The translations under genes were made by a program, and so were the position numbers. A DNA stretch of 64,000 nucleotides from a virus. Below are positions 15,344 through 62,066 of this stretch, one piece after another; positions within the stretch are counted from its first letter, which is position 1; every line of letters starts with the position of its first letter. The DNA lies in IMG/VR virus record IMGVR_UViG_3300003323_000950, positions 11,659-75,658 of that record; one strand, given 5' to 3'. The notes beneath the pieces were generated by a model. The model did not search any database, was not told the origin of the DNA, and saw only the letters and a program-made list of their open reading frames with translations.

Positions 15344-15375
15344 AAAAGTTGTGATTTAAGTCTGATTTGTGATAA

Positions 15376-15397: not shown

Positions 15398-15435
15398 AAA
15401 CACAAATATTTTTCGTAGAATTGCTAACACAAAAC

Positions 15436-15464
15436 AAAAAGGGCCAGCGTTAGCCGACCCTTTT
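15436..15464 (-). terminator. Rho-independent terminator
   Basis: AAAAGGGTCGGC-TAAC-GCTGGCCCTTTTT on the minus strand. Confidence 0.8.
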
Positions 15465-15535
15465 ACCCCAAACTTCTTAGTAATACTTAGATGTGCGAAG
15501 AAAAGTCTTACCGGTACAAATATAACATTACAACT

Positions 15536-30307: not shown

Positions 30308-30348
30308 AAAAAGTTTGATTGTATTTAAAATGTAACACGAAAGTATAT

Positions 30349-30416
30349 AAAAAAACCCCGAGCTAAAAGCCCGGGGCCATCAATCAAACTTTCATGCTGA
30401 CAACGTTGGATTGGCC
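30349..30416 (-). terminator. Terminator after the tube gene, preceded by a hairpin carrying an anti-leader sequence
   Basis: CCCCGGGCT-TTT-AGCTCGGGG plus T7; upstream ATGAAAGTTTGATTGAT. Confidence 0.75.
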
Positions 30417-30430: not shown

Positions 30431-30961
30431 TTATCCCAACGATGCGCCGGCTAGGAAAGCGACGCCACCAGCGCGAGCAGCTGAGCCTGCAAACAAAGCC
30501 TGCAAGCCTGGAGAATCCTTCGGGTAATAGAATTGGGTGGCGAAAGTAACGGTTTCAATGAAATTTTCGCCGTCACCGTTTGAATTTAAGTTACTCGGGG
30601 AAATCTTCATCGGCCATATGTCGCCCAGGAAGAAAGTTTGAATGGTAGTAACACCATCGTTGGCCAGGTGCTTCAAGAAGCCTGTTTTAATGAAGTCTTT
30701 ACGGATGCCGGCCACGCCTTCAGCGAACCAGTCCCATGCCCACGTATCAGCCTGGGTTGCCGGGCATAGTTTCTTCACAACCAAATCACCAACCTTCATT
30801 CTACCAGGTGTTTTGGCATTGGGGATATTCGCGGGCGCGCCGTGTTCGATCTTTGCATATTCTACATCCGGTGCCTGCACTTCCTGAATGAGGAACATGT
30901 TAATACCATCGATTTCAAGTATGTAGCGGAAGTTTTTCCGCGGGTTTGCTAATCCTGACAT
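30431..30961 (-). CDS. Tail tube protein (T4 gp19-like)
   Basis: NPRKNFRYILEIDG, KTPGRMKVGDLVVKK, WAWDW, WPMKI. Confidence 0.92.
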   Translation of the reverse strand: MSGLANPRKNFRYILEIDGINMFLIQEVQAPDVEYAKIEHGAPANIPNAKTPGRMKVGDLVVKKLCPATQADTWAWDWFAEGVAGIRKDFIKTGFLKHLANDGVTTIQTFFLGDIWPMKISPSNLNSNGDGENFIETVTFATQFYYPKDSPGLQALFAGSAARAGGVAFLAGASLG

Positions 30962-30972: not shown

Positions 30973-32547
30973 TTAAACTTCGCTTACTACAAATTTAACT
31001 GAATTAGAATCCGTGGGCGTCACATCGATCGCTATAGCTTCAGTAGCTACAATCGGAACGAATACAAAGCGGGCGCGGTACTTGCCGGCGTCGAGGTCCT
31101 GCTGAGTATTCAGCTTGGCATCTTCGCGACGATCAGCGTTTTGATCACCTTGCCAGAACCAGTTCGTGTCTTCGCCTGGTACAATTGCTTGGTTTTCCTC
31201 GAGCGATGTAATAAACGGTAGCACTCTGCGGTACATCGCTTTCCACATGATCGGGTTGTTCGGGTCAAACTGCCCAGGACGAATGAGCGGGCGCAGGCTT
31301 CTCATGATGAATACGCAAAGATCCCCGACGTTAGAGAACTTCAAAAGACTGGATGTATTCTTCCACAGAGACCTGTTGCCGTAGAACATGGTTCCAAAAG
31401 AGTCGTCCTGTACTACCGGGTTGATACCTTTCGGGTAAATACGATCGAAGTCGGCCGCATTTGCCTGTGATATTAAATTGAACGGGACGCCGTTGTTAGG
31501 GCTGATTACCACACCTCGCTCCGAGCCAGCGTCAGACCACCACGCGCCATATTTGGCGTCCACGCGCAGACGGTTAGCGAATACGTCTACTACGCCAGGA
31601 ATGTCAAAAGTCTTGTCTCTGTTTACGCTGTCGGTGATGTTCACATCACAAGCCACCAGGCGGCCGACCCATTCATTATGGGCAGTATGCACATAAGGGC
31701 TCAAGCCATCGCGGTAGTTCTCAAGACCGGTAGCATTTATGCCGAGAGGTGTTCCGATGTGGTAGGTAGCATCGCCGCGCGCCACTACATAGGCACGAAG
31801 ACCCTCGTCTACGTCATCATCACCAACCGCGCCGATGTTCGCGAAGCGGTATGAATCCGTAATCTTGTCAGCTACAAACCATCCATTTTGGCCCGCTGCA
31901 GTTCCTGTCCAGTCAGCCGCTACGATGTCGGTGATTACCTGGGCACCGGTAGCGAGCGTTCCAGTTCCGTTTTCGATTTGCGTCGCAATGCTCACGAGCT
32001 CAACACCAGCGCCTTTGCCCTTAAGAAGGTTGTTGAAATCTGCAATAGCCGCAGTATTCATAGTGCGGGGTATATCGTATACCGTTACAGATATATCAGA
32101 ATCGGTCAGCTGGATAGTGATGTCTTTGGCGTTGGCAAGTCCGGAAGCAGCGTTTACGATTGTGATCGTGGTGCCGTTATAACCGTCTCCAACTTCTTCC
32201 GCGCGCCAAACAGAGTTATTGGTAGTTACCGTTATGGTCGCTGTGGCCTTTGTTCCTGCAAGCGTGGATTTGTCTGTTACCGTAGCGTAATGGCCTGCGC
32301 GGATGACATAGAATTTAGCGCCGGCCCTGATCATTCGCAAGGCGTATGTTACGCCTTTATCATCGGTCCTCTCTCCTCCGAGCTTACGAACAAAACTCTG
32401 CGGGTCACCGACAAAAATAGGTGTGCCGATTTTGCCTCGCTTCGTTATCAGCTGAATGACACCGATACCTCCTATCGGCGTGTCTTTAAGGATTGACCTG
32501 TCTACAACGCCGATAATTACTTTCGGCGCACCAGTTAATTCTGCCAT
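30973..32547 (-). CDS. Tail sheath protein
   Basis: GAWWSDAG..RG, GINPVV, YGNRSL, FDPNNP.MW; directly upstream of the tube. Confidence 0.92.
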   Translation of the reverse strand: MAELTGAPKVIIGVVDRSILKDTPIGGIGVIQLITKRGKIGTPIFVGDPQSFVRKLGGERTDDKGVTYALRMIRAGAKFYVIRAGHYATVTDKSTLAGTKATATITVTTNNSVWRAEEVGDGYNGTTITIVNAASGLANAKDITIQLTDSDISVTVYDIPRTMNTAAIADFNNLLKGKGAGVELVSIATQIENGTGTLATGAQVITDIVAADWTGTAAGQNGWFVADKITDSYRFANIGAVGDDDVDEGLRAYVVARGDATYHIGTPLGINATGLENYRDGLSPYVHTAHNEWVGRLVACDVNITDSVNRDKTFDIPGVVDVFANRLRVDAKYGAWWSDAGSERGVVISPNNGVPFNLISQANAADFDRIYPKGINPVVQDDSFGTMFYGNRSLWKNTSSLLKFSNVGDLCVFIMRSLRPLIRPGQFDPNNPIMWKAMYRRVLPFITSLEENQAIVPGEDTNWFWQGDQNADRREDAKLNTQQDLDAGKYRARFVFVPIVATEAIAIDVTPTDSNSVKFVVSEV

Positions 32548-32572
32548 TGTGATGAATTGGGTTTTGGTTATT

Positions 32573-36407: not shown

Positions 36408-37706
36408 TTACAGTTGAGAGAATGCCTGATTGATACGAGCATCGATATCCATGTATGCCGGGAACGGAGTAGAGGCGTAGGTTACGGCCTTGCTCTGTAT
36501 AACACGGGCGCTACGGTTGATGATGCCGAAATTGATCCAGTCGCTCATGAACATTTCCTCAGTCTGGTTCTGCGGATTGCGGCGGCGCTCAGTCATGAAA
36601 CCGCGGTAAGTCAGCTTCATCATCGCACGTTGAGGGTTCAGATACAACATCTGGTTAGCAGGCGTGATGTACGCATCAATATCGAAAGCATCAGGAACAC
36701 CAACGATCGAGCGAATGGTTGCCAGTCTGGTATCGCCATTGAAGCCTTCGAAGCGGTCAATGCCGGTGATATTGATAGCGTCGTCTTCAGAAGTGATCAG
36801 GCGGGTAGCAGGTGTACCCAGGCGGCGCATGCGGGTAAATACACGTTTGATATCGGCGTATGTGAATCCATTCGCAGTCACGTTTACACCAACAACAGGA
36901 GCCGATTCAGAGAGGTCAGCTTGCTCACCGTTCACCAGGACACTGAATGCCAAAGCATCTGCGCCGATCGCCATGTCGTTACCAACTTCCTGGAGGAAGG
37001 TGTAGATCATGTCGATAGAAGATGCCATCACCATCTCGTCCGTGATCGCGAAACCGGTACCGATCTTGAAGATGTTCAGGTCCTTTTTACCGAATTTAAC
37101 CGATCCGAAAGGAATGTTTGCACCTTCATTCACGCGCGACGGCATGCCATCGCCGCGTAAAATCATCGGCATGGTCACCTTCTGCTGGGCCATGTTCTGA
37201 GTCGTGGCAATCCAGTTCTGATGCAGCGACGCGTGCTGATAACCAGTGCGCACAGCGCTCATGAAGATCTCAGGAATGATGAACCGGAAAGAGGAATCAA
37301 CGCTTTGAGTGTTCACCGGCGCTGAATCGGCATATCTCATTTTCGAGTGATCGATCAGGAATTCTTCCACAGTGGACTTGTCCAGGCGGTGCATGCCGAG
37401 AGCAGCTGATACGTCGGAGAGGGAATCTTCACCGGGTGACAGGTCAAAGCAACGCAGGAACTGGCGTGTGTCTTTGAAACCGTAGACTTTGTTTAAGGCG
37501 TCGTCAAACGATACGTCTTTAGCCCGCAGCTTATTGCCTTTTTTGTCTACGGCAAGCCCGAGACGTGTTTCTGTGATCTGCTTACAGAATTCACCGAGTG
37601 TTTCTTCGACCGTGTGCCGTACTCTGGTGTCATCTTCCTTTCCAATGCCACCTTTCGCGAGTTCCATATTGTGCGCCTTTACGGCGCCCAGTTCTAATTT
37701 TTCCAT
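36408..37706 (-). CDS. Major capsid protein (HK97 fold)
   Basis: RFIIPE, VNEGANIP, KIGTGFAITDE, VLVNG; synteny and strong codon bias. Confidence 0.9.
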   Translation of the reverse strand: MEKLELGAVKAHNMELAKGGIGKEDDTRVRHTVEETLGEFCKQITETRLGLAVDKKGNKLRAKDVSFDDALNKVYGFKDTRQFLRCFDLSPGEDSLSDVSAALGMHRLDKSTVEEFLIDHSKMRYADSAPVNTQSVDSSFRFIIPEIFMSAVRTGYQHASLHQNWIATTQNMAQQKVTMPMILRGDGMPSRVNEGANIPFGSVKFGKKDLNIFKIGTGFAITDEMVMASSIDMIYTFLQEVGNDMAIGADALAFSVLVNGEQADLSESAPVVGVNVTANGFTYADIKRVFTRMRRLGTPATRLITSEDDAINITGIDRFEGFNGDTRLATIRSIVGVPDAFDIDAYITPANQMLYLNPQRAMMKLTYRGFMTERRRNPQNQTEEMFMSDWINFGIINRSARVIQSKAVTYASTPFPAYMDIDARINQAFSQL

Positions 37707-37752
37707 GTGATGAAATTTAAAAAATTGGGTTTTGGTTTATTCCGGTTAGGTC

Positions 37753-38205
37753 TTAGTTCAGCTGGTACGGTGTTCTGAGTATTCCGATCTCGATTACAGT
37801 GTCCACTGCGCCGCCACTGATTACAACGCCGCTTACGTAATCACCGGCAGCCGTTGCTGTGTACTCGGGAAGACCCTCAGCAACAATGGCGGTGTTCCAG
37901 TTGCCGTTTGGTTTAACAGTAGCGCCGGCAGCAATTGTACCGCCCTTGGCGATTCCTTTTACGGTGCGCTGGAAAGCTGTGAACACTGAAACTCTTTCTC
38001 CAGTGCCTTTGCCTACTGTCACTACGCCAATCGGGAGTTGTGTTCCAGTGGTACGTTTTGTAACGGACAAGTTTGCGCTCATGATAACCTCCTGACCCTG
38101 GAAAAGGGTGCCAGCGAACGCATTAGTAAGCGTCAAAATTACGCCGGTAGGTTCAGCATGCTTGGAGATGGTGACGGATGCCGGCATTATTGATTCGGTA
38201 GCCAT
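37753..38205 (-). CDS. Capsid decoration/cement protein
   Basis: Gly/Ala/Val-rich 150 aa between protease and MCP; PIGVV, IAAGATV. Confidence 0.75.
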   Translation of the reverse strand: MATESIMPASVTISKHAEPTGVILTLTNAFAGTLFQGQEVIMSANLSVTKRTTGTQLPIGVVTVGKGTGERVSVFTAFQRTVKGIAKGGTIAAGATVKPNGNWNTAIVAEGLPEYTATAAGDYVSGVVISGGAVDTVIEIGILRTPYQLN

Positions 38206-38257
38206 AAAAATATTGGGTTTTGGTAAAAATGATGACTAAAAAGTATATGATACCGGT

Positions 38258-39712
38258 TTACCGGAGTGATTCTGCAAGGTGCTTGTTACCCAGCACGGTC
38301 TTTGACTTCGGTGGTGTATTCGGATCGTCAGTCTGCTTGCTGCTGCGGAAGCTGATGTCTGTTGATCCGCATTTTGCGCAGTGGCCACCGAACTCAGTAA
38401 CCGCCTTTCCGCCGAACAATTTAAGTTTCGCGTTGACTGCCTCAAGGCTTGTCGCTGCATCGATCTCAGCTTCGATCGTAGGATCAACTTTATCGCCTGC
38501 AAACACGCCGTACAAACGCTTCGCTTCTTTCTTCGAAGCTTCCAGTACTTCAGTGCCTACTTTGGCCAGCGCTGCAGAAGCTGTCTTCTCGGCTTCCAAC
38601 GTTGTCTTAGCTGCCTTAATGGTTGCTATCTCAGCTTCAAGGCTCACCACCTTAGCATCCGCTGCTTCCTTCTCGGCGGTAACCTTCTGGAAGTTTTCTG
38701 CATTCGTTTTCATTTGGGTGAAGGCTTCTTTTGAAGCGATCACTTTTTCGGCGTCTGCTTTCGAAAACTTACCGGTGCCGATGTCCGCAGCCGTTGTACC
38801 GAAAATGCTCGCCAAGAGTTCTAACAGATCCTTGTTCATTTTTAAATTGTCGTTTTGTTCTTTATCAAAATGTAATGCGGAGTTTTGTAAATGTAATAGC
38901 TTTTGATCGTCGAAGCAATCGCACACAAAGTACTTGCGGTTAGGTTCATATATACGATTCTCTGGATCATCGGAGAACTTGTTCTTCGCGTACATGCTGG
39001 CATGATCTATATTAATCAACTCACCGTTTGGCGAAAGCATCTTCGCATAAGGATCAGCGCCTGCCCAAACCAAAGAGCTTTCTTCGTAACCGATGATCTT
39101 TGTGGCTATACGGCGAACCATCTCGTCGTCGATAATTTCACCAAGGTGCCAGTAAAAGTCTCCGTTAAATTCGAACTCGTGTGATGCTTCCCAGTCGAAC
39201 AATACGGTAACCGATGCAGATGTTATAGGCGATACAGGTGAAGACATCCGGCGCACCAATTCGGGGTTTAAGATACCATCTATAACGAATGGAGCCTCAA
39301 TGCCGCCAGGTACTTCGTCACCATTTGAGTTTTTATATCCAGGAACCCATTCGGTTTCCCCCACATTGCCTATTTCTTTGCCTACCATTTGAATGTGATT
39401 CAAGTAAGCAGGTTTATCTCTCAGCAAAGAGGTAGATTTCTTCAGCACCGTACCTTCAGAGAAATCTGTTGCTTTCCAGGAACCGCCGCCTACTATTGTC
39501 GCAGATATGTGCCGGAAAGGAAACATATAGAAGTCTTCCTTCTTTGGTATAAGCGGTATATCAAAGCTCTGCGCCGATGTCTTTCGATCCTTCGGCAACT
39601 CAAGCCCCATGCTTTCGAATATTCTCTTCGCTGCCTGTTCCTGAAGCAGCTTATCTGTATCGGATTGGACGCGGAATAACGTCAATGAACCCTTACCTCC
39701 GAACTTTGCCAT
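38258..39712 (-). CDS. Prohead protease/scaffold fusion
   Basis: Start probably ATG 39712; YLNH, SASV, EESSLVWAGADP protease motifs; Ala/Glu/Lys coiled coil; CAKCGS. Confidence 0.8.
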   Translation of the reverse strand: MAKFGGKGSLTLFRVQSDTDKLLQEQAAKRIFESMGLELPKDRKTSAQSFDIPLIPKKEDFYMFPFRHISATIVGGGSWKATDFSEGTVLKKSTSLLRDKPAYLNHIQMVGKEIGNVGETEWVPGYKNSNGDEVPGGIEAPFVIDGILNPELVRRMSSPVSPITSASVTVLFDWEASHEFEFNGDFYWHLGEIIDDEMVRRIATKIIGYEESSLVWAGADPYAKMLSPNGELINIDHASMYAKNKFSDDPENRIYEPNRKYFVCDCFDDQKLLHLQNSALHFDKEQNDNLKMNKDLLELLASIFGTTAADIGTGKFSKADAEKVIASKEAFTQMKTNAENFQKVTAEKEAADAKVVSLEAEIATIKAAKTTLEAEKTASAALAKVGTEVLEASKKEAKRLYGVFAGDKVDPTIEAEIDAATSLEAVNAKLKLFGGKAVTEFGGHCAKCGSTDISFRSSKQTDDPNTPPKSKTVLGNKHLAESLR

Positions 39713-39809
39713 GATGATTATATTGGTTTGATATTGCGAAACTACCAAAAAAATATATAATCGTTAAATCAATGCTTTTCATAACATCATCATTGACGTA
39801 TATTTAAGT

Positions 39810-40304
39810 ATGAAAACAGCTATCGATATTACTGGTCAAAAGTTTGGAAGGCTTACCGTTTTGAAAAGAAACGGTGAAAGCAAGAACGGCATGTCTTTAT
39901 GGTTATGCGTTTGCGAATGTGGTAGGAAAATAACTACTCGATCGAATGGATTGAGAAGCGGAAGGGCGAAAAGTTGTGGCTGTCATAGGAAAGATCGAAT
40001 GAAGACATTAAATCTTGATCATGGTTTAAGAAACCATTATATCTATAACATTTGGAGAGGCATTAAAAAGCGTTGCTATAATAAGAAACATAAAAGCTAT
40101 AATGATTATGGAGGTCGTGGAATCACGATGGCTCCTGAATGGCTAGATGACATAGTGGCTTTTTATAATCATGTTGGTGAAAGGCCATCGTCAACTCATC
40201 AAATTGATAGGGAAAATAATAATGGAAATTATGTTCCAGGAAACGTTCGATGGGTAACACCTAAAGTCAATTCAAATAATAGAAGGAAATCTAAACGGCC
40301 TTGA
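39810..40304 (+). CDS. HNH homing endonuclease-like protein
   Basis: DITGQKFGRLTV, WLCVCECG, SCGC, YGGRGI, IDRENNNGNY.PGNVRWVT...N..NRR. Confidence 0.9.
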   Translation: MKTAIDITGQKFGRLTVLKRNGESKNGMSLWLCVCECGRKITTRSNGLRSGRAKSCGCHRKDRMKTLNLDHGLRNHYIYNIWRGIKKRCYNKKHKSYNDYGGRGITMAPEWLDDIVAFYNHVGERPSSTHQIDRENNNGNYVPGNVRWVTPKVNSNNRRKSKRP

Positions 40305-42849
40305 AGTAGGCAATACATCTTCCTCTGCAATGCGGGTGATACGACGGCAGTGCAATACCTTTCGCCTGCAGTGATTTCGGATCCATGGTCACAAACTGAT
40401 CAAGCTTAATCGTGGTGGCGAATGGCGTATATTCCGGTGTTTTCGCTATGCCTTCCCGAAACAATGTCTCGTATTGCTGCACACTGTTTTTAACGCTGAA
40501 TATTTTGCCATTCATATGCTTGCAGTATCCGCACGTGAGTCTATCCATCACCTCAACAACCTGGTACTCGGCAATATCTGCCTGATTCAGGTATAGAAGG
40601 TTTCCGATGTTTCGCGCTTTGTTGGATGTAGTCTCTATGATTCGGCGGATCTTCCACGCTTCAAGTAGTACCTCCCTGGCAAATTCGAGTATAAATTCCT
40701 GTATCAAGCTACTGCCCTTGCCAATCGGAACATCGCCCTGTTCAAATTTCTGCTTCACCCAGTTTACAATTCGCTCTTGGGTATCCGGATCAGTTATAAA
40801 TTTGCCCAAATAGGTATGGTCTACTTCTTCCAGGAAGGCAATCGCGCGGGCATCCAACAGATTGAATGCAGCATCCGGGACGGTTACGAACGATACAGGT
40901 GATCGGGAGTATTCACTCGATTCAGAAAATATCGATTTGTCCTGGCGGTAAAAGCTGTAGATATCTTCTATGTTATTTGTGACAATGTCATGAACCGGCG
41001 TCACGAAATTGTTTTCCCAGCCCTCCAGAAGGCCGTAATACATAGCTGCTTGAACTTCACCAACTAATGCGGTTTCGCCTAAAGCTTTGAATTCTCTGGT
41101 TATTGACTTCTTTGACTTGTTAACGAAGGTTTCGAACTGGGTATTAACAGCGCCCAGATATGCCTTCAGAAAATCCACCAGATGGGCATCGTGATAATTG
41201 CCTATTTCGTCGAAAGAAGCGGCCCCGGAGCAATCTTCCGGGACCGCATAATCAAAAGGGGGCGCTTCGATGTTAAGCTTTTTACGGATACGGTCCAGCT
41301 TTTTTTCAGCGGTGGTCTGCGCTTTATTATCTTCCGATCCTCCTACTGCCTTCGACGGTAATATATTGGTTATTGGTGCATCAAGCTCAGGATCGTCGAC
41401 TCCTGCGTAATTGGCTGCTGCTTTCTGGCTCATAAAGCCTGAGAAATAATACCTGGCGGCATTTTCAATGCGCTCTTTCTTGGCCTGTTCGTCTTTGAGT
41501 TCATCGGTTATCGATGCCCGCTTGTATCGGATATTGCATACCGCCGGTCTAAATCCAGCCAGGCGGAGCTCGAGCATAAACACCCGTGATTTGAATTCAG
41601 CGAGTGTGCGCTGGAAATTGGCAACCTGCTGCGTCATCTTGGTAAGCACTACGCGGCCGAACGTCTCCGTAGTCGCGTAGTTCTCGCCGTGCATATTCGG
41701 GTCCTGCTTGAGACCTGAATAGATCAGGGATTTGACCATCTTCATTAATTGCTCACCGGACGCGCCGTTCAGTTCAGATCCCTGTAGGGTGAACTCGTGA
41801 TTATCTTTGTAACCCACCGTGAACCCACGAGAAAAACCATTTTCAACATCCTGTCTTACGCTGTTCAGATAGTTCCTGAGATAATTTTCATACTCTTCAG
41901 GTGATTTTTGTTGCTGTGGAGGTGCTTTCAACAATACCGACAGAAAGCCCATCATCCCGAGCCGGCGCATCATGTTCTTGAAGTTACCGATCATATCCTT
42001 TTCCGTCAGCAGGTCTTCAAGCGCTGAAGCGAAAGGTGGAACGGCAACCGGCGATATGCCCAGCCGGCGTATACCAAGGTAGGTGTACGTCGCCGGATTG
42101 AGCTGTATATAGCCAGGATATAGCCCGGTTCCGTTATTTGAGTTTACGCCTACTATTTGCTGCAGGGGAACGTGAACAGACTTAACCTTGTCGTAGCCAA
42201 ACCGGATGTAATATGGATCAACTCGAACAATGCTCTGGATGCCTTTAAGATTCGGCATGATCACAGCCTCTGCGCTTAGTGCGCCGGAGTACGCCATTTG
42301 GGTAAGAAGATCATTGTCGAGGGAGTCTTCGCCAGAGGCAAATTCGTACCAGCTCTTTACTCGAGTCTGGAGATACTTGCGCATCTCAACGCTTTGTTTC
42401 TCGCCGGTCTCGCCGAAGTCTATGTCATAATCTGTATTGCCGAGGGCAACGATATTTTCAACGGCCATAGATACGTGGCGATCCTGGAAAGCGTACTTCT
42501 GTAGGGTTTTGAGTATGGTGTAGTCGAACTCGTTATCCACCGGGGCGTTCATGTTGCCGAAGCCATAGTTCCCTTCGTACAGAGAGACCCGTCCGCTGGC
42601 GATTGGAGCCATGACGTTATTCGTCGTGTCATCCACCTTGTTCGACATCGCTGCGTACTTCTGTTCCTCTTCCTGGAAAACCTTGCGGATTATGTCACCA
42701 TATACCCTTTCGAATTCCGCTTCATTGATCTGCTGCGGGCTTGGTTCAGAAACAACTGCGGCTGATACGGCCGCTGGCTGGGATTCTTTTTCCGGCGCAG
42801 CCTTCACAGACTTACCCCAGCCGAAAGAAAAATTGACATTGAAACCCAT
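40291..42849 (-). CDS. Portal protein fused to a Mu gpF/SPP1 gp7-like minor head domain
   Basis: Portal-like region (VPPFASAL..L, RRLGMMG); C-terminal RRIIET, DRLTCGYCKHMNGKIF, LPSYHPHCRG. Confidence 0.85.
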   Translation of the reverse strand: MGFNVNFSFGWGKSVKAAPEKESQPAAVSAAVVSEPSPQQINEAEFERVYGDIIRKVFQEEEQKYAAMSNKVDDTTNNVMAPIASGRVSLYEGNYGFGNMNAPVDNEFDYTILKTLQKYAFQDRHVSMAVENIVALGNTDYDIDFGETGEKQSVEMRKYLQTRVKSWYEFASGEDSLDNDLLTQMAYSGALSAEAVIMPNLKGIQSIVRVDPYYIRFGYDKVKSVHVPLQQIVGVNSNNGTGLYPGYIQLNPATYTYLGIRRLGISPVAVPPFASALEDLLTEKDMIGNFKNMMRRLGMMGFLSVLLKAPPQQQKSPEEYENYLRNYLNSVRQDVENGFSRGFTVGYKDNHEFTLQGSELNGASGEQLMKMVKSLIYSGLKQDPNMHGENYATTETFGRVVLTKMTQQVANFQRTLAEFKSRVFMLELRLAGFRPAVCNIRYKRASITDELKDEQAKKERIENAARYYFSGFMSQKAAANYAGVDDPELDAPITNILPSKAVGGSEDNKAQTTAEKKLDRIRKKLNIEAPPFDYAVPEDCSGAASFDEIGNYHDAHLVDFLKAYLGAVNTQFETFVNKSKKSITREFKALGETALVGEVQAAMYYGLLEGWENNFVTPVHDIVTNNIEDIYSFYRQDKSIFSESSEYSRSPVSFVTVPDAAFNLLDARAIAFLEEVDHTYLGKFITDPDTQERIVNWVKQKFEQGDVPIGKGSSLIQEFILEFAREVLLEAWKIRRIIETTSNKARNIGNLLYLNQADIAEYQVVEVMDRLTCGYCKHMNGKIFSVKNSVQQYETLFREGIAKTPEYTPFATTIKLDQFVTMDPKSLQAKGIALPSYHPHCRGRCIAYFKAV

Positions 42850-43174: not shown

Positions 43175-44467
43175 TTACGGAAACATGGACAACTGCATGT
43201 CTCTGTTGCGGATAGCAAATTCAATCCGGGCGCGGGATATATTGATGTTGTGTTCGTCGAGCTCTATCCCGGTATATAGCATTTTCTCGAACATGCATGC
43301 TTTGCCGGTTGAGCCGCTGCCTGAGAATGGGTCTATGACGTGGCCTCCTTTCGGCGTAACCAGATTGATCAGGTACCGCATTAGCGCGGTTGGCTTAACG
43401 GTCGGGTGATTGTTTGGGCTTGATTTGTCAGTACCTTCAGACTGAAAGGAACCCGGGTTTTTGGTGCCGCTGCTCCAGAGCAGTGGCATAGATGCTAAAG
43501 CCTCACATCCTTCGTTTCTATCGAGGCGTGATGTCTTTGCGCAGTAAAAGAAGCGGGCTGCAGAACCTTCGTCGCCATAGCTTACATTTTCAGAACCGAA
43601 AGCTCTCACATGCTTGCCGTAGGTATTATTACCAGAATATCCGGTGGCTGTTTCGTTGGTAAAATTGGAATCGCCTGACTTAGTATATGGGAACATCTCC
43701 ATTATGCATTCTGAACCGTCGTGAATGAGGTTTGCCGGCCAGCGGCCATTCTCACCACCAGATACAGCTTCAGCGTGCTTCTCACCGTTGTTGTTGCCTG
43801 GTGTATACGATGCGTTGTTAAGTTTTGGCTGGCTGCTTACAGTCCACGGTCCTAAGCCTTTTATGGATGACTCAGCGATGTTCAGCGCTCCCACACCGAA
43901 ATGATCCATATTACTCTTAACGGTCCCATTCAAAGGCTTTCGGGCGACAAGGATAGGTTCATGAGCAGGCTTAAGCGCAGTGCCATAACCCTCGTGTTTA
44001 CCTTCCAGATTGTGAGACTTGGGGAAGCCAGAACCGAATACCCAAAATATTTGATCGCGTACTTCGAAACCTGCTTCCTCGACGCCGCATACCATCCGGT
44101 GATATGTGCGCGGGCTCGCGAATACGATCATGTGCGCACCGGGTTTCAATATGCGGTACATCTCCGAAGCCCATGTAAATGTGAAGTCCTGGAACTGGCG
44201 CATCGCTACTATATCGTTTTTGTAGGTGCCGGCTGAAAGAGACTTTCCAAAACCATTACTAACTCTGCCTTCGCGGACGGCTTCACTTTTGGCTTTATTG
44301 TCTCGAATAGCATGTTGCTTTTCGATATCGAACTTATCCCAGGCCTTGCCCATGAAGCGGATCCCGTACGGCGGATCAGTAACGCAAGAATCAAAATGAT
44401 CTGCGGGCAGCTGCTTCATTACCTCCTCGCAGTATCCGGTGTAAAGTGTGTAGGGTTTAGCGGTCAT
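43175..44467 (-). CDS. DNA N6-adenine/N4-cytosine methyltransferase (beta class), orphan
   Basis: VTDPPY before HPTVKP and IDPFSGSGSTG. Confidence 0.93.
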   Translation of the reverse strand: MTAKPYTLYTGYCEEVMKQLPADHFDSCVTDPPYGIRFMGKAWDKFDIEKQHAIRDNKAKSEAVREGRVSNGFGKSLSAGTYKNDIVAMRQFQDFTFTWASEMYRILKPGAHMIVFASPRTYHRMVCGVEEAGFEVRDQIFWVFGSGFPKSHNLEGKHEGYGTALKPAHEPILVARKPLNGTVKSNMDHFGVGALNIAESSIKGLGPWTVSSQPKLNNASYTPGNNNGEKHAEAVSGGENGRWPANLIHDGSECIMEMFPYTKSGDSNFTNETATGYSGNNTYGKHVRAFGSENVSYGDEGSAARFFYCAKTSRLDRNEGCEALASMPLLWSSGTKNPGSFQSEGTDKSSPNNHPTVKPTALMRYLINLVTPKGGHVIDPFSGSGSTGKACMFEKMLYTGIELDEHNINISRARIEFAIRNRDMQLSMFP

Positions 44468-44507
44468 TTTATTTTACTCTGGCTCCTGGATCTATTGAAG
44501 TGTCATA

Positions 44508-44792
44508 TCAATATGCCCCATGATCAAGCATATCACTTGACTTTACAGATTTTTCAAACTCGTACTCTTTTAGAATTTTAACCAGATAGATCTTTCCGGT
44601 GGTCTCTTTGTGGTACTTATTCAAAAGGTCATCATACTCTGCCGGCAAAGCCGATCGAACTTTATCTGGCTGCGTGAGCAGCGCATACGCGACTAAAGTA
44701 TCGCTTTCGCTTAGTTCCTGGTGCACTGGGCCTCTGTCGTCGAAGATCGCCATAACGCGCTCCGGAATGTTAATAACGGGAAGTTTATTCAT
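44508..44792 (-). CDS. Hypothetical protein
   Basis: 94-aa ORF in operon orientation. Confidence 0.6.
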   Translation of the reverse strand: MNKLPVINIPERVMAIFDDRGPVHQELSESDTLVAYALLTQPDKVRSALPAEYDDLLNKYHKETTGKIYLVKILKEYEFEKSVKSSDMLDHGAY

Positions 44793-44806
44793 CGTCGTAA
44801 GGGGTT

Positions 44807-44857
44807 AAAAGAAACCGGCCACCATCTGAACCTAAGTTTCTTCCTATGGCAGCCGGA
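44807..44857 (-). ncRNA. Terminator-like hairpin with a 20-nt loop
   Basis: CCGGCUGCCAU-loop-AUGGUGGCCGG-UUUCUUUU; G-U pairs support the minus strand. Confidence 0.55.
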
Positions 44858-44912
44858 AATTCATAAAAGTGTAAGTGGTCGTCATGGGGCCATTGCTTGT
44901 TAAGAACGTCGG

Positions 44913-45006
44913 TGCGAATCATGACCTTCGCATTGTGCCCAGGTGTTGGCTTTCGCTGAACCCGGGCGGATGTAGTTTAAAGTTATCAATCAATCAAACA
45001 GCATCC
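44913..45006 (-). ncRNA. Multi-hairpin small RNA B with anti-leader loop
   Basis: GGAUG..GUUUGA-UUGAUUGAUAACU-UUAAAC..CAUCC, then GCCCGGGU...ACCUGGGC and UGCGAA...UUCGCA hairpins. Confidence 0.65.
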
Positions 45007-45016
45007 ATATCTTAAA

Positions 45017-45115
45017 GGCGCACGGCAGGATTGTCTGTTTTTACTGGACTTATACAATTTGCCAGTGCCTTACCTGCAAATGTGTCCGGCGCATTTGATC
45101 GCCGCCACGTGCGCC
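45017..45115 (-). ncRNA. Degenerate tRNA-like element
   Basis: Acceptor-like GGCGCACG/CGUGCGCC, UGGCGG after the stem, T-stem GCAGG/CCUGC with a hairpin inserted in the T-loop; no canonical anticodon arm. Confidence 0.55.
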
Positions 45116-45123
45116 ATTAATTT

Positions 45124-45423
45124 TTATTCAGAAACCAGCATTTCAGCCGGGTAATAAGTCAATTCGAAAATATCAGGTTTGCATGGGTAGAACTCACCTT
45201 TAACGCCTTTGATAATATAGTCTCCTGGTAGCGCTTTGTGGTCGCCTTCAAGTGTTGGGATCGTCACGCTGAAGATAGGAGCGCCTTTACCGGCTTCGTA
45301 AGCTGTATCAGACTCCAATTCAGTTTTCAGTTCTGTGCCGACAAATCCATTTATCTCGTCGAGATTGTGACCATTGTATTGCACTGCCTCAATGGTGATA
45401 GGTTTTTTAGTATATTTTTTCAT
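45124..45423 (-). CDS. Conserved phage protein (PGDYG-like family)
   Basis: KKPITIEAVQY, IPTLEG.H.A.PGDYIIKGVKGEFYPCKPDIFELTY. Confidence 0.8.
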   Translation of the reverse strand: MKKYTKKPITIEAVQYNGHNLDEINGFVGTELKTELESDTAYEAGKGAPIFSVTIPTLEGDHKALPGDYIIKGVKGEFYPCKPDIFELTYYPAEMLVSE

Positions 45424-45437
45424 AAAGTTGATTTTCA

Positions 45438-45924
45438 AAGTAAGCCGCCAGTGTTACCCGGCGGCTTTGACGGTTTTTATGGATCTTACCGACAAACCGA
45501 TTTGTTTCAAAGAAACGACCTGCGTACACTCTCACTTTCAATTTCACCCTCTTTCTATCGAAAGGCTAATTTCCTGGGCAATACTACTACAGATCGTCTT
45601 GTCCGTTTCACAGACTTTGTCCGCATGCGCTTTGGACCAGCGTTGCATGTTTACATGCTCGTCCCGGTTAGCCGGGCGACTCCCAATTTAAAGATTAGGC
45701 TCTCTTGTCTTCGGCCAGCGGAGGGCTTCAACCTCCTGTCAACATTACACGTCTGTTTATCGACCGCCGTTTATTACAGACCTTTAACACGGCCGAATGC
45801 AAACGCCAGCATGTAACCGATGACAAACTTTCAACACGTTGCCGGCCTAGTGCCTGCGGGGCTGGGTTCATCACGCCCAGGCCCCTATGTGCCTTTTCAT
45901 TTTACCAAAACCCAAAGGACACAT
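45438..45924 (-). ncRNA. Large structured ncRNA of about 480 nt with 5' anti-leader hairpins and an embedded tRNA-like domain
   Basis: No minus-strand ORF in the track; own promoter; nested long-range helices with G-U pairs on the minus strand; terminal GC hairpin 45442-45467. Confidence 0.75.
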
Positions 45925-45925
45925 T

Positions 45926-45955
45926 CAAATTTATAGCCTTCTGCTAGTTATCAAA
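45926..45955 (-). promoter_or_regulatory. Bacteroidota sigma-A promoter for the ncRNA
   Basis: TTTG (45955-52), 18-nt spacer, TAAATTTG (45933-26). Confidence 0.75.
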
Positions 45956-46011
45956 AGAAGCCGATGGCATTAATTTTTATACTATATCAACTGTAAGGGT
46001 TACAAAGGGAC

Positions 46012-46044
46012 AAAGCTCGGCGGGCATATACGTCGGGCTTTTTT
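46012..46044 (+). terminator. Plus-strand terminator with no obvious upstream gene
   Basis: GCTCGGCG/CGTCGGGC stem with two G-U pairs on the plus strand, then T6. Confidence 0.65.
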
Positions 46045-46051
46045 ATTGCCC

Positions 46052-46294
46052 CTACAGTATTTGTATGCGTGACGGCTCTATGCGCCTGTGTTCATAGGCA
46101 CCGCTTTCGTTCTTTTCGAACGGCTCGATGATGGCATAGGTCCTGGAGAAAATCAACCCTACAGGCTGATCTGGCGGCTCAAGATCGCTCACGTATCCGA
46201 TCAGATAGGCTTTTTTAAGCTTGCCATCCTTTATATCCAGGAACAACACGCGCACGTGGGTAATTCTGCGGAGGAATCGAAACAGTCTATTCAT
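46052..46294 (-). CDS. Hypothetical protein
   Basis: Likely start MNRLFRFL, overlapping the upstream stop. Confidence 0.55.
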   Translation of the reverse strand: MNRLFRFLRRITHVRVLFLDIKDGKLKKAYLIGYVSDLEPPDQPVGLIFSRTYAIIEPFEKNESGAYEHRRIEPSRIQIL

Positions 46295-46751
46295 GTTCAA
46301 TAAATGAAGTTCTCTTGTTGTTGACCAATTCCATATTGAGATCCGCGAACGCTTCGAGCTCGTTCTCACCCACGCCGAACGTACCAATGTGCGGACTGTC
46401 AGGCATCCACTCGCCAGCCATGCATGCGACAAAGTCACCTTTGTAAGCGTACACCATGACACCGCGCTTAATGCAATACTCCTGTATTATTTTACCGAAA
46501 TGCTTATCCATTTCCTCAAACAGGGTATTTAATTTCTCCCACTCTGGCGTGCCCCATACATCTCTGTAGAAGCCAGGTATCGCCATCACATAAAGGAGAA
46601 AATCCATCAACGAAAGGTGATTTGTGATGTGGAACAGAGTCTCAACTCCCTTCCACGTTTTGTACTGGTTTACGCCGATAGCCTGCACTAAATTTTCAGG
46701 CACGCACACCGGGGCATTGTCCTTGCCCAGGAAAATATAAAATGGTTTCAT
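46287..46751 (-). CDS. Hypothetical protein
   Basis: 154-aa ORF; C-terminal FGVGENELEAFADL is HicB-N-like at best. Confidence 0.65.
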   Translation of the reverse strand: MKPFYIFLGKDNAPVCVPENLVQAIGVNQYKTWKGVETLFHITNHLSLMDFLLYVMAIPGFYRDVWGTPEWEKLNTLFEEMDKHFGKIIQEYCIKRGVMVYAYKGDFVACMAGEWMPDSPHIGTFGVGENELEAFADLNMELVNNKRTSFIEHE

Positions 46752-47026: not shown

Positions 47027-47054
47027 TTGCTTTTTGTTTGACTGATTGATAGAT

Positions 47055-47086
47055 CAAATGTAACACGAAGTTACATGCAAAGCAAA
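47055..47086 (-). promoter_or_regulatory. Promoter TACATTTG overlapped by a perfect operator palindrome
   Basis: ATGTAAC-ACGAA-GTTACAT (47058-76); TTTG upstream. Confidence 0.85.
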
Positions 47087-52582: not shown

Positions 52583-52608
52583 ATGTTTTTGATTGATTGA
52601 TGATGAAT

Positions 52609-52630
52609 CAAATGTAACACGAGATTACAT
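52609..52630 (-). promoter_or_regulatory. Promoter TACATTTG overlapped by operator
   Basis: CAAATGTAAC-ACGAG-ATTACAT. Confidence 0.8.
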
Positions 52631-56779: not shown

Positions 56780-56801
56780 TTTGTTTGATTTGATTGATAT
56801 T

Positions 56802-56823
56802 CAAATGTAACACGAAGTTACAA
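56802..56823 (-). promoter_or_regulatory. Promoter TACATTTG overlapped by operator
   Basis: CAAATGTAAC-ACGAA-GTTACAA. Confidence 0.85.
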
Positions 56824-57670: not shown

Positions 57671-58102
57671 TTAAAATAATGAAGTCTGATTTGGGTCTGT
57701 TGCTGGCTTCAAGTTAAGATAAAATTTCAGGGGATCGTAATTCGAAGTGAACTCGAGCTCGTCAATCAATTCGTACTTACTCAGGAAGCGGGCGAGGAGG
57801 TTGTTTTTACCATCGCGCCAGTAGAAGCGGCGCAGGCCGCAGCGGCTATTGTGGCAGCGGTATATGCGCGGGGTAATAATCGGCAGGTAGTCGCACCAGG
57901 CGCGCTGCGATGGCGCGTAAAGATAGCCGCGGGCAAATGAATCCAGCCCGCAGGCTGGGCACGTCCAGCGCAGCGGCTCCGGGTCGCGCTTCATTTGCCG
58001 GTCCGTGCGATCGGTTACCGTCTCAGTTTCACGTGAAACAGTAAGAAATTCGATTTGGTTGTTGTCCCCGAAATTGAGGCGTTTTCCTTCGATCTGATTC
58101 AT
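57671..58102 (-). CDS. Zinc-ribbon hypothetical protein
   Basis: CPACG...CHNSRCG; coupled to the terminase stop. Confidence 0.65.
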   Translation of the reverse strand: MNQIEGKRLNFGDNNQIEFLTVSRETETVTDRTDRQMKRDPEPLRWTCPACGLDSFARGYLYAPSQRAWCDYLPIITPRIYRCHNSRCGLRRFYWRDGKNNLLARFLSKYELIDELEFTSNYDPLKFYLNLKPATDPNQTSLF

Positions 58103-59799
58103 TATATGAAAGGCATAGTGATTGAACTGTAGTATCTCGAGCGGTTCTTACGGCGCCAATTCCAGTATACCACTACGTCCGCTAAGTTTGGAGACTCGCC
58201 GCCCATGCGCTTTTTGATGTCTTCCTTCTTTTCAAGCACGATTTGCGTGTTGCTTACGACGTACCGGGGCATAGTCAACTGCTTAGCGAGCTTTCGGAAT
58301 AGCTGTGAGTCGGTGATAGAAAAGAATATCTCCCTGTTTATCAGGTCAAGGCGCATCTGCCAATACATCTGCGCGCGTAGGCTGGCGAAGCTGTAAAGCA
58401 ATTTGCCCTCTTCGTCCAGCGGTATGCAATTTTCATCTTGGAAGCCTGCCAGGGCGGCAACCTTAAATTCAAGCTCCTCGAAGCGCTGCACGGTGGCCGT
58501 GCCAATGCCGACGGCATCGACCCCTACAGAGTCACCATTCAGCACGCCGAGCTCCTGCATAGTGGGTATGTTATAGACCGGGCGCTTCTCTTTCTCAAGC
58601 GTGAATACGTCTTTGGTCAGGTTGTCGGCTATCGCTGACGCGTTGGGGCATTGGAACTCCTTCAGGTAGGTCATCTCGTTCTTTACGCCGGCGGCTATCG
58701 CTGCAGCATCGCCGACGATTGAGTTCGCCACGTCCACACCAAGCGCGTTGCGGCTGATGTTGTCGTGAAGTATGCGGCCTTTCTTCAGGTAGCTTTCGTC
58801 CATAATCCAGCAGCCCATAATCCATTCCATCTTGATCAGGGAGTCTGAAGATTCCATCGGCGCGATACCGCGCACGCGGGATCGGAAGAAGTTTGATTCG
58901 TCGCCGTACTCGTCCCGGCGGATGTTTATAGACTTCTGAGACACTGCGCCATGGATAAGCGTGCGGCCGCAAACAATGTTTGGGTGATCGTACCCGCTTA
59001 TCCGGATGTGCTCAACGTGCTTTTGCTCGCAGAATTGGTGCAGGGCATCGGTTACGGAGTCGGGGTTACCGATCGCGATCACCGGGTTATAGTCGCCTGT
59101 CACGGTGTTCTTGATCGCGTTCATGACGGCGTGCGGTACGCCGGCGGCTTCCTCCACTACGAAAAGCATGTACTTGCGGTGGAAGCCCTGCATTTTTGTG
59201 GCTGATTCCTCGCCCGCCTTCACGCCCGCCACGACGCCTATCGCCTGGTGTAGGTTGGAATACTCGTCATCGTCCTCGAATGATGGATTGTTCATGTGCG
59301 TGCCGAAGCTCACCTTGCTGCCGTCGGGCACTATGCGCAGGTTGAACATCTCCGCGGCCGGGCGGATCTTCCGGAAGCGGCCGAAGCAGGATGATATTTC
59401 GCCCCACAGCAGCGTCTTCAGCTGCTGCTCTTTGGGTGCTGTGGTTACCACCAGGGAGTCAGGGAAGACATCCAGGAACCAATACACGATGCGGGCAACG
59501 ATGAAGGTTTTGCCTGTACCAGTGGCCGACTCGATACCGACTGATCTAAACTCTGAAAGCGCCTGCATGGCGCGAAGGAATGGATCGGGCGTGGCGTCCC
59601 ATATATGGTTCGCATATTCGGGCCACTGGCTCCAGCGTATGTCCGACACGCGACCGCCGAAGCGCTCTACATACCAGCGTTCGGGGTCGCCCTGGTATAT
59701 TACATTAAGTCTTTCGAATTCCTGCTGAGCGCGCCGGGCGGCTGCGCGCTCGTTGAGTTTTTTAAGTGCCGCACGGGATTTTAACCTGGCTTCGCTCAT
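58102..59799 (-). CDS. terL: Terminase large subunit
   Basis: Walker A SATGTGKT, TAP...Q....LW.EI, Walker B VVEEA, IGNP, nuclease LGVDVA, VDAVGIG, SPNLAD. Confidence 0.93.
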   Translation of the reverse strand: MSEARLKSRAALKKLNERAAARRAQQEFERLNVIYQGDPERWYVERFGGRVSDIRWSQWPEYANHIWDATPDPFLRAMQALSEFRSVGIESATGTGKTFIVARIVYWFLDVFPDSLVVTTAPKEQQLKTLLWGEISSCFGRFRKIRPAAEMFNLRIVPDGSKVSFGTHMNNPSFEDDDEYSNLHQAIGVVAGVKAGEESATKMQGFHRKYMLFVVEEAAGVPHAVMNAIKNTVTGDYNPVIAIGNPDSVTDALHQFCEQKHVEHIRISGYDHPNIVCGRTLIHGAVSQKSINIRRDEYGDESNFFRSRVRGIAPMESSDSLIKMEWIMGCWIMDESYLKKGRILHDNISRNALGVDVANSIVGDAAAIAAGVKNEMTYLKEFQCPNASAIADNLTKDVFTLEKEKRPVYNIPTMQELGVLNGDSVGVDAVGIGTATVQRFEELEFKVAALAGFQDENCIPLDEEGKLLYSFASLRAQMYWQMRLDLINREIFFSITDSQLFRKLAKQLTMPRYVVSNTQIVLEKKEDIKKRMGGESPNLADVVVYWNWRRKNRSRYYSSITMPFI

Positions 59800-61814: not shown

Positions 61815-61835
61815 AAAGGTTAAAAGTTTGATTGA

Positions 61836-62066
61836 TTATTTGTTTTTGTTTCGCGCACGGCGCTGTTTGCGTCGGCGATTTTTAGTGTCTTCATTGTACT
61901 GTATCTGGCCACCTTTAAGCATAATAGATCTCATGGATATTATAACCGGCTCAAGAGGCATAAACCACTCCGGATCGCCAATATCGCGCTTAAAGTTTTG
62001 GATTGACTCAGCACTTTCCCGCATTACGCGGTCAAATTCTTTATTCAGTTCTGCAGTACTGGGCAT
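61836..62066 (-). CDS. Hypothetical protein with basic tail
   Basis: 76-aa ORF in operon. Confidence 0.55.
   Translation of the reverse strand: MPSTAELNKEFDRVMRESAESIQNFKRDIGDPEWFMPLEPVIISMRSIMLKGGQIQYNEDTKNRRRKQRRARNKNK

What the first reader, a model, noticed from the sequence alone, without database searches (positions are those of the whole stretch)
44807..46044. Candidate phage RNA-guided translation-control locus: ncRNA cluster whose hairpin loops are antisense to the phage's own leader classes
Seen: about 1.2 kb holds only one convincing gene. The rest is a promoter, a large structured RNA, two tRNA-like elements and several hairpins. Separate hairpin loops are exact or near-exact reverse complements of the -1 to -30 regions of two different gene classes: virion genes (capsid, decoration, sheath) and genes behind the shared operator-promoter. 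Established: Bacteroidota largely initiate translation without Shine-Dalgarno pairing and depend on unstructured A-rich leaders. Inference: the phage uses shared leader motifs as address codes and loop-presented RNA guides to repress, or possibly recruit, whole regulons. I do not know a described system with this layout.
Basis: partly seen in the sequence, partly recalled or inferred. Interest (0 to 1): 0.95.

Follow-up and report, generated by a model that had tools for sequence, protein, structure and literature searches.

The report
Phage RNA unit mirroring its gene leaders
A 1.26-kb promoter-to-terminator unit in an uncultured Bacteroidota-type phage holds one small gene and long non-coding RNA stretches with short G/U-rich segments that exactly mirror the C/A-rich tags before the start codons of the capsid, sheath and other phage genes; this probably marks a phage-made antisense RNA that damps translation, but no transcript or close relative was available to prove it.

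Summary
The core observation holds. Window 44793-46051 (minus strand) has one coding gene, p99 (45124-45423). It lies between a consensus Bacteroidota -33/-7 promoter (45956-45926) and a minus-strand terminator-like hairpin with a U-run (44856-44807).

Three short RNA segments exactly mirror leader tags:
- 45915-45900 mirrors ACCAAAACCCAA. In the 75.6-kb genome this tag occurs only before the sheath, capsid and 150-aa head genes.
- The 9-nt loop at 45875-45867 mirrors UUCAUCAC next to the AUG of capsid and sheath.
- 45000-44984 mirrors the (AUCA)n-AAAC leaders.

Six leaders have an exact antisense match of 12 nt or more, against 0.18 in 2000 shuffles. Genome-wide only one other such site exists (30379-30395).

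Not confirmed:
- No tRNA-like element (ARAGORN 0, Rfam 0) and no Rfam family.
- Only the 3' 254 nt of the long gap folds better than shuffles.
- The first seed is half paired, not in a loop.
- Whole-segment duplex energies are no better than shuffles.
- No close relative and no RNA data could be obtained, so co-variation and transcription remain untested.

Two distant relatives carry their own mirror of their own, different tags. This scan noted similar anti-leader hairpins in other Bacteroidota phages. Best reading (about 0.45): a trans-acting antisense RNA, in the manner of c4 and GcvB.

The parts
46012..46041 (.). Hairpin terminator after gene p80 (46052-46294). It is the upstream border of the unit and is more stable as plus-strand RNA (two G.U pairs, U6 tail on +).
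   Evidence: -21.9 vs -14.9 kcal/mol
45926..45956 (-). Bacteroidota-type promoter: TTG at -33, 18-nt spacer, TAAATTTG -7 box. Inferred transcription start near 45920.
   Evidence: motif definition from PMC7366714
45900..45915 (-). Seed S1, UUGGGUUUUGGUAAAA, at about +5 of the inferred transcript. Exact complement of the tag before the 150-aa head gene (16/16), capsid (12/12) and sheath (12/12).
   Evidence: unpaired probability 0.3-0.5
45858..45885 (-). Strong G+C-rich hairpin. Its 9-nt loop (45875-45867) shows GUGAUGAA, the complement of UUCAUCAC next to the AUG of capsid and sheath.
   Evidence: (loop 0.95 unpaired)
45824..45834 (-). Weaker third mirror, UUGAAAGUUUG (11 nt), against CAAACUUUCAA-type leaders (genes ending 57652 and 60773).
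45436..45689 (-). The only part that folds clearly better than shuffles, and better on the minus strand. It is a run of hairpins ending in a terminator/attenuator-like hairpin (45467-45442) 19 nt before the p99 start codon.
45124..45423 (-). p99, a 99-aa conserved phage protein of unknown function (phrog_419) and the only gene of the unit.
44968..45006 (-). Hairpin in the p99 3'UTR carrying seed S2 (45000-44984, UGUUUGAUUGAUUGAUA), with UUGAUUGAUA in a 13-nt loop. It is complementary to at least seven (AUCA)n-AAAC leaders.
44807..44856 (-). Terminator-like hairpin (11-bp stem with two G.U pairs; -21.0 on minus vs -13.1 on plus) followed by UUUCUUUU. It ends 14 nt before the ATG of p94.
38213..38228 (-). 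Target tag in the leader of the 150-aa head gene (37753-38205).
37707..37736 (-). Capsid (MCP) leader: core tag at 37725-37736 and UUCAUCAC at 37707-37714, directly before the AUG.
32549..32568 (-). Sheath leader: the core tag and UUCAUCAC lie adjacent, starting 4 nt after a TACATTTG -7 box.
47035..47051 (-). Best S2 target (-21.8 kcal/mol): leader of p88 behind an operator-promoter. Further S2 targets at 52587-52601, 56782-56799 and 61826-61840.

Best explanation
The stretch is one minus-strand transcription unit in a 75.6-kb Bacteroidota-type myophage. Its order is: host-type -33/-7 promoter, about 480 nt of non-coding leader, the small gene p99, about 310 nt of 3'UTR, then a terminator.

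The RNA carries short G/U-rich segments. One sits at its extreme 5' end, one in the loop of the next hairpin and one in a 3'UTR hairpin loop. Each is the mirror of a C/A-rich tag that the phage places within 30 nt upstream of start codons.
- The 5' pair addresses the three most abundant virion proteins: capsid, the 150-aa head protein and the sheath.
- The 3'UTR segment addresses genes with (AUCA)n-AAAC leaders, several of them behind the shared operator-promoter.

Inferred mechanism: the RNA, whole or processed, pairs in trans with these leaders. The host does not use Shine-Dalgarno pairing and needs open leaders, so pairing would block 30S loading. This would set a threshold on translation of whole gene classes.

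Shown: the anatomy and the non-random complementarity. Inferred: transcription, pairing in vivo, and the direction of the effect.
For: - The 12-mer tag occurs four times in the genome at up to 1 mismatch: three virion-gene leaders and the single inverted copy here.
- A second, independent 8-nt match to two of the same leaders (capsid and sheath) sits in a 0.95-unpaired loop 25 nt downstream.
- The two blocks are not in the order a simple inverted copy of the capsid or sheath leader would give.
- Exact-match enrichment has P<0.0005 against 2000 shuffles. Seed energies are -21.8/-18.6/-18.6 for S1, with the next leader at -13.1. For S2 they are -21.8 to -14.9 over 7 leaders. In both cases 0 of 200 shuffled seeds did as well.
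- Reverse-only and complement-only controls give no multi-leader intergenic hit.
- Each mirror matches the shared core of its tag family and not gene-specific flanks.
- At the capsid and 150-aa genes the tags lie in intercistronic gaps without a -7 box, which argues for an RNA-level role.
- The promoter is consensus, and the 3' terminator hairpin is minus-specific through G.U pairs.
- Distant relatives G005 and G004 each have an intergenic 3'UTR/terminator-context mirror of their own, different tag family.
Against: - No RNA data exist for this phage.
- No relative closer than 52% portal identity is known, and none of those could be fetched. The fetched relatives (39% portal identity or less, plus one partial match at 45%) have no homologue of the region. 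Co-variation of this locus is therefore untested.
- The S1 core is partly sequestered in a weak local stem.
- Whole-segment duplex energies are no better than shuffles, because A-U/G-U duplexes are weak.
- The 5' part carrying the seeds has no unusual fold (z = -0.76).
- Six of eight distant relatives show nothing clear.
- The hairpin upstream of the promoter is a better terminator on the plus strand, so plus-strand transcription cannot be excluded.
Confidence: 0.45

Rival explanations
1. Moron with long UTRs, where the mirrors are by-products. The unit is simply an independently transcribed accessory gene (p99). Its structured 5'UTR (45689-45436, with a terminator-like hairpin just before the start codon) regulates p99 in cis. 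The mirrored tags are short inverted-patch duplications of leader DNA with no function of their own.
For: - Promoter-gene-terminator layout.
- p99 is a widely travelling phage gene, with 72-108-nt matches at about 72-85% identity in Bacillus and Streptococcus phages.
- Significant fold energy lies only next to p99.
- S1 extends to about 19 nt of similarity with one particular leader (150-aa gene) if one indel is allowed, as a copy would.
- (ATCA)n is a slippage-prone repeat.
Against: - Both tag classes have their only inverted copy (class 1), or one of only two (class 2), inside this 1.26 kb.
- A separate 8-nt loop match hits two of the same leaders, capsid and sheath.
- The mirrors match family cores exactly, with an abrupt loss of similarity outside them.
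- Analogous mirrors with other sequences occur in G004 and G005.
Confidence: 0.25
2. Plus-strand or DNA-level reading. The plus strand carries the tags in sense orientation (44985-44999, 45867-45874, 45904-45915). A plus-strand RNA ending at the 46012-46041 terminator would act as a decoy for a factor that binds the tags. Alternatively, the tags are DNA sites for a regulator and work in either orientation.
For: - The 46012-46041 hairpin is 7 kcal/mol better on the plus strand and has a U6 tail there.
- Hairpin 45015-45071 is also plus-favoured.
- The 5' half of the gap folds slightly better on plus (z = -2.17 vs -0.76).
- Both the sheath and the ncRNA promoter have the motif just downstream of TTTGAAT.
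Against: - No TAnnTTTG box on the plus strand in the region.
- No plus-strand ORF with coding potential.
- Most hairpins, and the 3' terminator, are minus-favoured.
- At the capsid and 150-aa genes the tags are not next to any promoter.
Confidence: 0.1
3. Cis-acting insulator. The mirrors act only within read-through transcripts, pairing with a tag further down the same RNA. Downstream genes are then translated only from their own promoters. This may hold at the third site (30379-30395), where the mirror and the next gene's tag flank a terminator and a promoter.
For: - At 30379-30395 the mirror pairs 12/12 with the leader of the next gene 60 nt downstream, possibly including its AUG.
- The G004 mirror has the same layout.
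Against: The genes directly downstream of S1/S1b (p99) and of S2 (p94) lack the tags. The nearest S1 targets are 7-13 kb away, beyond a terminator.
Confidence: 0.08

Closest known systems
c4 antisense RNA of phages P1/P7 (Rfam RF01695; Citron and Schuster 1990, own knowledge; mentioned in PMC11143913)
   Same: It is a phage-encoded RNA that presents two short segments complementary to two boxes in a leader covering the ribosome-binding region. It represses translation in trans.
   Different: - No match to the C4 model, even at E<=10.
- c4 targets one operon just downstream on its own transcript and is cut out by RNase P. Here several unlinked mRNAs 1-17 kb away are addressed.
- No tRNA-like feature is detected.
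- One seed sits at the 5' end rather than in a loop.
GcvB sRNA of enterobacteria (G/U-rich seed R1 silencing C/A-rich, ACA-type translation-enhancing elements; PMC3879156)
   Same: A G/U-rich segment is complementary to C/A-rich elements just upstream of start codons of many mRNAs. In both cases the target elements are likely translation enhancers.
   Different: GcvB is host-encoded, Hfq-dependent and part of an SD-using system, with no sequence or Rfam relation. Here the RNA is phage-encoded, the tags are private to the phage, and the host phylum ignores SD (PMC6847099).
3'UTR-derived and intergenic base-pairing sRNAs, including Bacteroides GibS (PMC7366714)
   Same: S2 lies in a hairpin loop in a 3'UTR upstream of an intrinsic terminator. 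The promoter type is the same as for Bacteroides sRNAs.
   Different: No processing site is known, and there is no homology. The unit also encodes a protein and is far longer than typical sRNAs.
Phage morons (promoter-gene-terminator inserts)
   Same: The unit has its own promoter and its own terminator and holds a single accessory gene found in unrelated phages.
   Different: Morons are not known for 480-nt structured leaders that carry mirrors of the phage's own leader tags.

Membership tests
C4 antisense RNA (RF01695) | Match to the family covariance model | tested here: not met
   cmscan of 44300-46600 at E<=10 gives only two snoRNA chance hits. Nothing in the whole window at gathering score.
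C4 antisense RNA (RF01695) | Two presented segments complementary to two boxes of one leader at the ribosome-binding region | tested here: met
   S1 and the GUGAUGAA loop pair with adjacent or nearby boxes at -30..-1 of the sheath and capsid leaders.
C4 antisense RNA (RF01695) | Released from a precursor by RNase P through a tRNA-like fold; target on the same transcript | tested here: not met
   ARAGORN finds 0 tRNAs or tmRNAs, and Rfam shows no tRNA or RNase P substrate family. The targets are 1-17 kb away. Actual processing cannot be tested in silico.
GcvB-type multi-target sRNA | Single-stranded G/U-rich seed | tested here: inconclusive
   S1 is G/U-rich but only 0.3-0.5 unpaired in partition-function folds. 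The S1b and S2 loops are 0.9-0.95 unpaired.
GcvB-type multi-target sRNA | C/A-rich targets at or upstream of the start region in several mRNAs | tested here: met
   Three leaders for S1 and at least seven for S2, all within 35 nt of the AUG.
GcvB-type multi-target sRNA | Homology to GcvB (Rfam) and Hfq dependence | tested here: not met
   No Rfam hit. Hfq dependence cannot be tested here.
tRNA / tRNA-like element | Cloverleaf recognised by ARAGORN or the Rfam tRNA model | tested here: not met
Large ornate RNAs (ROOL, GOLLD, HEARO, OLE) | Match to the Rfam models | tested here: not met
Independent transcription unit (moron-like) | Own promoter, own terminator, and a gene with a distribution unrelated to its neighbours | tested here: met
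   Promoter; minus-specific terminator hairpin with U-run; p99 matches phages of Firmicutes and Proteobacteria, while the neighbours have no hits. Transcription itself was not tested.
Trans-acting antisense regulator (general) | Co-variation of seed and target in relatives | not testable with these tools
The fetched relatives lack the locus. Only system-level recurrence was seen, in G004 and G005.

The most novel reading that the evidence does not exclude
SD-blind Bacteroidota phages label classes of their genes with private C/A-rich tags next to the start codon and read them with their own G/U-rich RNA segments. In this phage one promoter-to-terminator unit would be a multi-seed hub. It would set thresholds for both the three most abundant virion proteins and the operator-promoter genes. 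This would be a general phage-encoded RNA layer of translational timing that has not been described in the literature I could search.
Probability: 0.3. Interest if true: 0.85.

Novelty: new variant of a known kind. Interest (0 to 1): 0.6.

Why it matters
How phages of Bacteroidota, whose ribosomes ignore Shine-Dalgarno sequences, time and scale the synthesis of their proteins is largely unknown. If these mirrors are active, the phage uses private leader tags plus its own antisense RNA to gate whole gene classes, including capsid and sheath. That would add a post-transcriptional layer to phage developmental control. It would also supply portable tag/anti-tag pairs for engineering translation in Bacteroidota. 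The claim can be tested directly with RNA-seq and compensatory-mutation reporters.

Tried and rejected
- Known RNA families: none at gathering score in the window, and only two chance snoRNA hits at E<=10 in the region. tRNA/tmRNA: none.
- Hidden coding: no small ORF in the gaps has coding potential. The 47-aa ORF starting in the GUGAUGAA loop scores -0.40.
- Origin of replication: no GC-skew extremum here.
- Relatives:
  - Single-protein scans with p154, p94 and portal found none.
  - The portal alignment found 22 viral and 13 metagenome loci. All are at 39% identity or less except one partial match at 45%.
  - No nucleotide or protein homologue of the region occurs in them.
  - The genome-contig scan found none.
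  - Leader-pattern scans of viral contigs found none.
- Sequencing runs: none was listed and no RNA holder was listed.
- Whole-segment duplexfold against leaders is not better than shuffles. It is dominated by G+C-rich imperfect duplexes and was replaced by exact-match and seed-level tests.
- A promoter weight matrix trained on the phage's promoters was swamped by the operator sequence and was not used.
- p99: no Pfam, NCBIfam or PDB relative.

Full report
CONTEXT. The window is bases 11659-75658 of a 75,658-bp IMG/VR virus record classed as having direct terminal repeats. Nearly all genes are on the minus strand. PHROG and Pfam hits identify:
- a contractile-tailed phage with terminase at 58102-59799;
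- a portal fused to a head-morphogenesis domain at 40291-42849;
- a protease/scaffold-like gene at 38258-39712;
- a capsid gene at 36408-37706;
- a sheath gene at 30973-32547;
- a gp19-like tube gene at 30431-30961.

A Bacteroidota host is inferred from three things. TAnnTTTG -7 boxes with TTG at -33 precede many genes (motif as in PMC7366714). The leaders are G-poor and lack Shine-Dalgarno sequences (PMC6847099). A distant portal homologue comes from a Crocinitomicaceae MAG.

ANATOMY OF 44793-46051 (MINUS STRAND). Gene p80 (46052-46294) ends at a hairpin at 46012-46041. The unit then reads in this order:
- A TTG-N18-TAAATTTG promoter at 45956-45926, one of about a dozen intergenic consensus -7 boxes in the genome.
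- A gene-free stretch reaching the ATG of p99 at 45423 (628 nt from the stop codon of p80).
- p99 (45124-45423), a 99-aa protein of PHROG 419 with unknown function. Its 3' part matches Bacillus, Streptococcus and other phage DNA at about 72-85% identity over 72-108 nt.
- 331 nt of 3' sequence.
- An 11-bp hairpin at 44856-44815 followed by UUUCUUUU, ending 14 nt before the ATG of p94.

This last hairpin contains two G.U pairs and is 8 kcal/mol weaker on the other strand. No other ORF in the gaps has coding potential. The stretch is therefore best described as one promoter-to-terminator unit with one gene and about 800 nt of non-coding RNA.

THE COMPLEMENTARITY IS REAL.
- At up to one mismatch, ACCAAAACCCAA occurs four times in the 75.6-kb genome. 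Three copies are in the leaders of the sheath, capsid and 150-aa head genes. One is inverted at 45904-45915.
- UUCAUCAC sits directly before the AUG of capsid and sheath. Its complement fills the 9-nt loop of the strong hairpin 45885-45858.
- The (AUCA)n-AAAC leaders have one inverted copy at 44985-44999.
- In an unbiased scan, only three places in the genome have same-strand RNA antisense to a leader over 14 nt or more. Each of the three matches at least three leaders. They are 45900-45915, 44985-44999 and 30379-30395.
- Reverse-only and complement-only controls give no multi-leader intergenic hit.
- Against 2000 dinucleotide shuffles of the two gaps, the count of leaders with an exact match of 12 nt or more is 6 versus 0.18 (maximum 4).
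- At seed level, S1 gives -21.8, -18.6 and -18.6 kcal/mol for its three targets and -13.1 for the next leader. S2 gives -21.8 to -14.9 for seven leaders. None of 200 shuffled seeds did as well.
- In contrast, duplex energies of whole segments are no better than shuffles.

WHAT DID NOT HOLD.
- ARAGORN finds no tRNA-like gene, and Rfam finds no family.
- The claim of a large structured RNA rests on the 3' 254 nt next to p99 (z = -3.46, 0/200 shuffles, minus strand; plus strand -1.70). The 5' 231 nt with the seeds are unremarkable (z = -0.76).
- The S1 core is 0.3-0.5 unpaired, not loop-presented. GUGAUGAA (0.95) and UUGAUUGAUA (about 0.9) are exposed.
- The hairpin upstream of the promoter (46012-46041) is a better terminator on the plus strand, so some plus-strand transcription cannot be ruled out.

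RELATIVES.
- The closest portal homologues are only 48-53% identical and come from Logan and JGI assemblies.
- Loci that could be fetched have 39% portal identity or less, apart from one partial match at 45%. They share the head-tail module but nothing from this region, and their leaders carry other motifs.
- No sequencing run was listed. The decisive co-variation and expression tests could therefore not be run.
- As a substitute I fetched nine relatives' contigs and ran the same same-strand anti-leader scan on eight of them. G001 was scanned only with the other versions; its genes lie on both strands.
- Six of the eight gave nothing above controls. Two have a single intergenic mirror of their own tag family:
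  - In G005, GGGGUUUAAGGGU lies right after a stop codon and before a U-run. It mirrors the A(A/C)CCUUAAACCCC tags abutting the AUG of at least six genes.
  - In G004, AUUAUUGUUGCUAA lies in the loop of a terminator hairpin. It mirrors the UUAGCAACAAUAA tags of about five leaders.
- This is recurrence of the principle with different sequences. It is not conservation of this locus.
- Notes of this scan report the same kind of anti-leader hairpin in several crAss-like and Flavobacteria-type phages, some with co-variation. I did not check those claims and use them only as leads.

MECHANISM. The favoured reading (about 0.45) is a trans-acting antisense RNA.
- It would be transcribed by host RNA polymerase from a promoter that lacks the phage operator.
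- The RNA would present S1 at about +5 and GUGAUGAA in the next loop. Both pair within -30..-1 of the capsid, sheath and head-gene leaders.
- S2 in the 3'UTR would pair with the (AUCA)n-AAAC leaders.
- In the capsid and head genes the tags lie in intercistronic gaps without a promoter, which points to an RNA-level role.
- They mark the three proteins needed in the highest copy number, which suggests they enhance translation. Duplex formation over them should then repress, giving a threshold that abundant late mRNAs eventually titrate.
- The two S1 blocks are not in the order of a simple inverted copy of the capsid or sheath leader, and the mirrors match family cores rather than one gene's flanks. 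This argues for selection.

Rivals, with my estimates:
- By-product inverted patches in the UTRs of a moron whose structured leader regulates p99 (0.25).
- A plus-strand or DNA-level reading (0.1).
- A purely cis-acting insulator, which fits site 30379-30395 but not the sites here (0.08).

COMPARISON AND VERDICT.
- In function the closest systems are P1/P7 c4 RNA (two presented segments against two leader boxes) and GcvB (a G/U-rich seed silencing C/A-rich enhancers, PMC3879156). Membership in either family was tested and not met.
- I found no paper describing such a system in Bacteroidota phages, within the limits of the held library.
- I rate it a new variant of a known kind.

Noticed in passing
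window 30379-30395 (-): Third anti-leader element, AUGAAAGUUUGAUUGAU, in the 3'UTR of the tail-tube gene. It lies directly before a strong terminator hairpin. It is complementary to at least four leaders (eight at k=10), including 12/12 with the next gene's leader 60 nt downstream across the terminator and promoter. It may act in cis on read-through RNA.
   Followed up: partly
window 47055-47075, 52609-52629, 56802-56822, 14311-14331, 15376-15396, 30327-30347; genome upstream of window at -6244, -8256, -1640: Shared operator-promoter. A TGTAAC-N5-GTTACA-type palindrome overlaps the spacer and the -7 box (TACATTTG) in at least nine promoters. This is presumably a site for a phage repressor or regulator, which was not identified.
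   Followed up: partly
window 45154-45261: The 3' part of p99 matches phage genomes of Bacillus, Streptococcus, Enterococcus, Vibrio, Klebsiella and others at about 72-85% nucleotide identity over 72-108 nt. That is unusually high DNA conservation across host phyla for a protein of unknown function (PHROG 419).
   Followed up: no
window 46012-46041: The terminator hairpin after p80 has two G.U pairs and a U6 tail on the plus strand, giving -21.9 vs -14.9 kcal/mol. All neighbouring genes are on the minus strand, so this may be a guard against antisense transcription or the end of an unseen plus-strand RNA.
   Followed up: partly
window 45115-45127 and 45968-45980: Exact 13-nt direct repeat (minus strand ATAAAAATTAATG). 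One copy lies 34 nt upstream of the -7 box of the ncRNA promoter. The other lies at the p99 stop codon, 30 nt upstream of a near-consensus CACATTTG. This hints at a second, weaker promoter for the 3'UTR RNA.
   Followed up: no
window 15344-15959 and 39713-40290: Two further long gaps (616 and 578 nt) between minus-strand genes. Both are A+T-rich (G+C 0.34-0.35). Each holds a plus-strand ORF of about 160 aa with poor coding score (0.03 and -0.15).
   Followed up: no
G005:C1:3960-3972 (L045) and G004:C1:1714-1727 (L041): Distant relatives each carry one intergenic mirror of their own leader tag family in a 3'UTR or terminator context. The G005 mirror lies about 4.3 kb upstream of its portal gene.
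   Followed up: partly
genome ends (G000:C1:1-24 and 75635-75658): The longest identical prefix and suffix of the record is only 24 nt, and it lies in a GAGCAG/CGGAGC-type short tandem repeat. The 'direct terminal repeat' may therefore be an assembly overlap of a circular or permuted genome rather than a true DTR.
   Followed up: no
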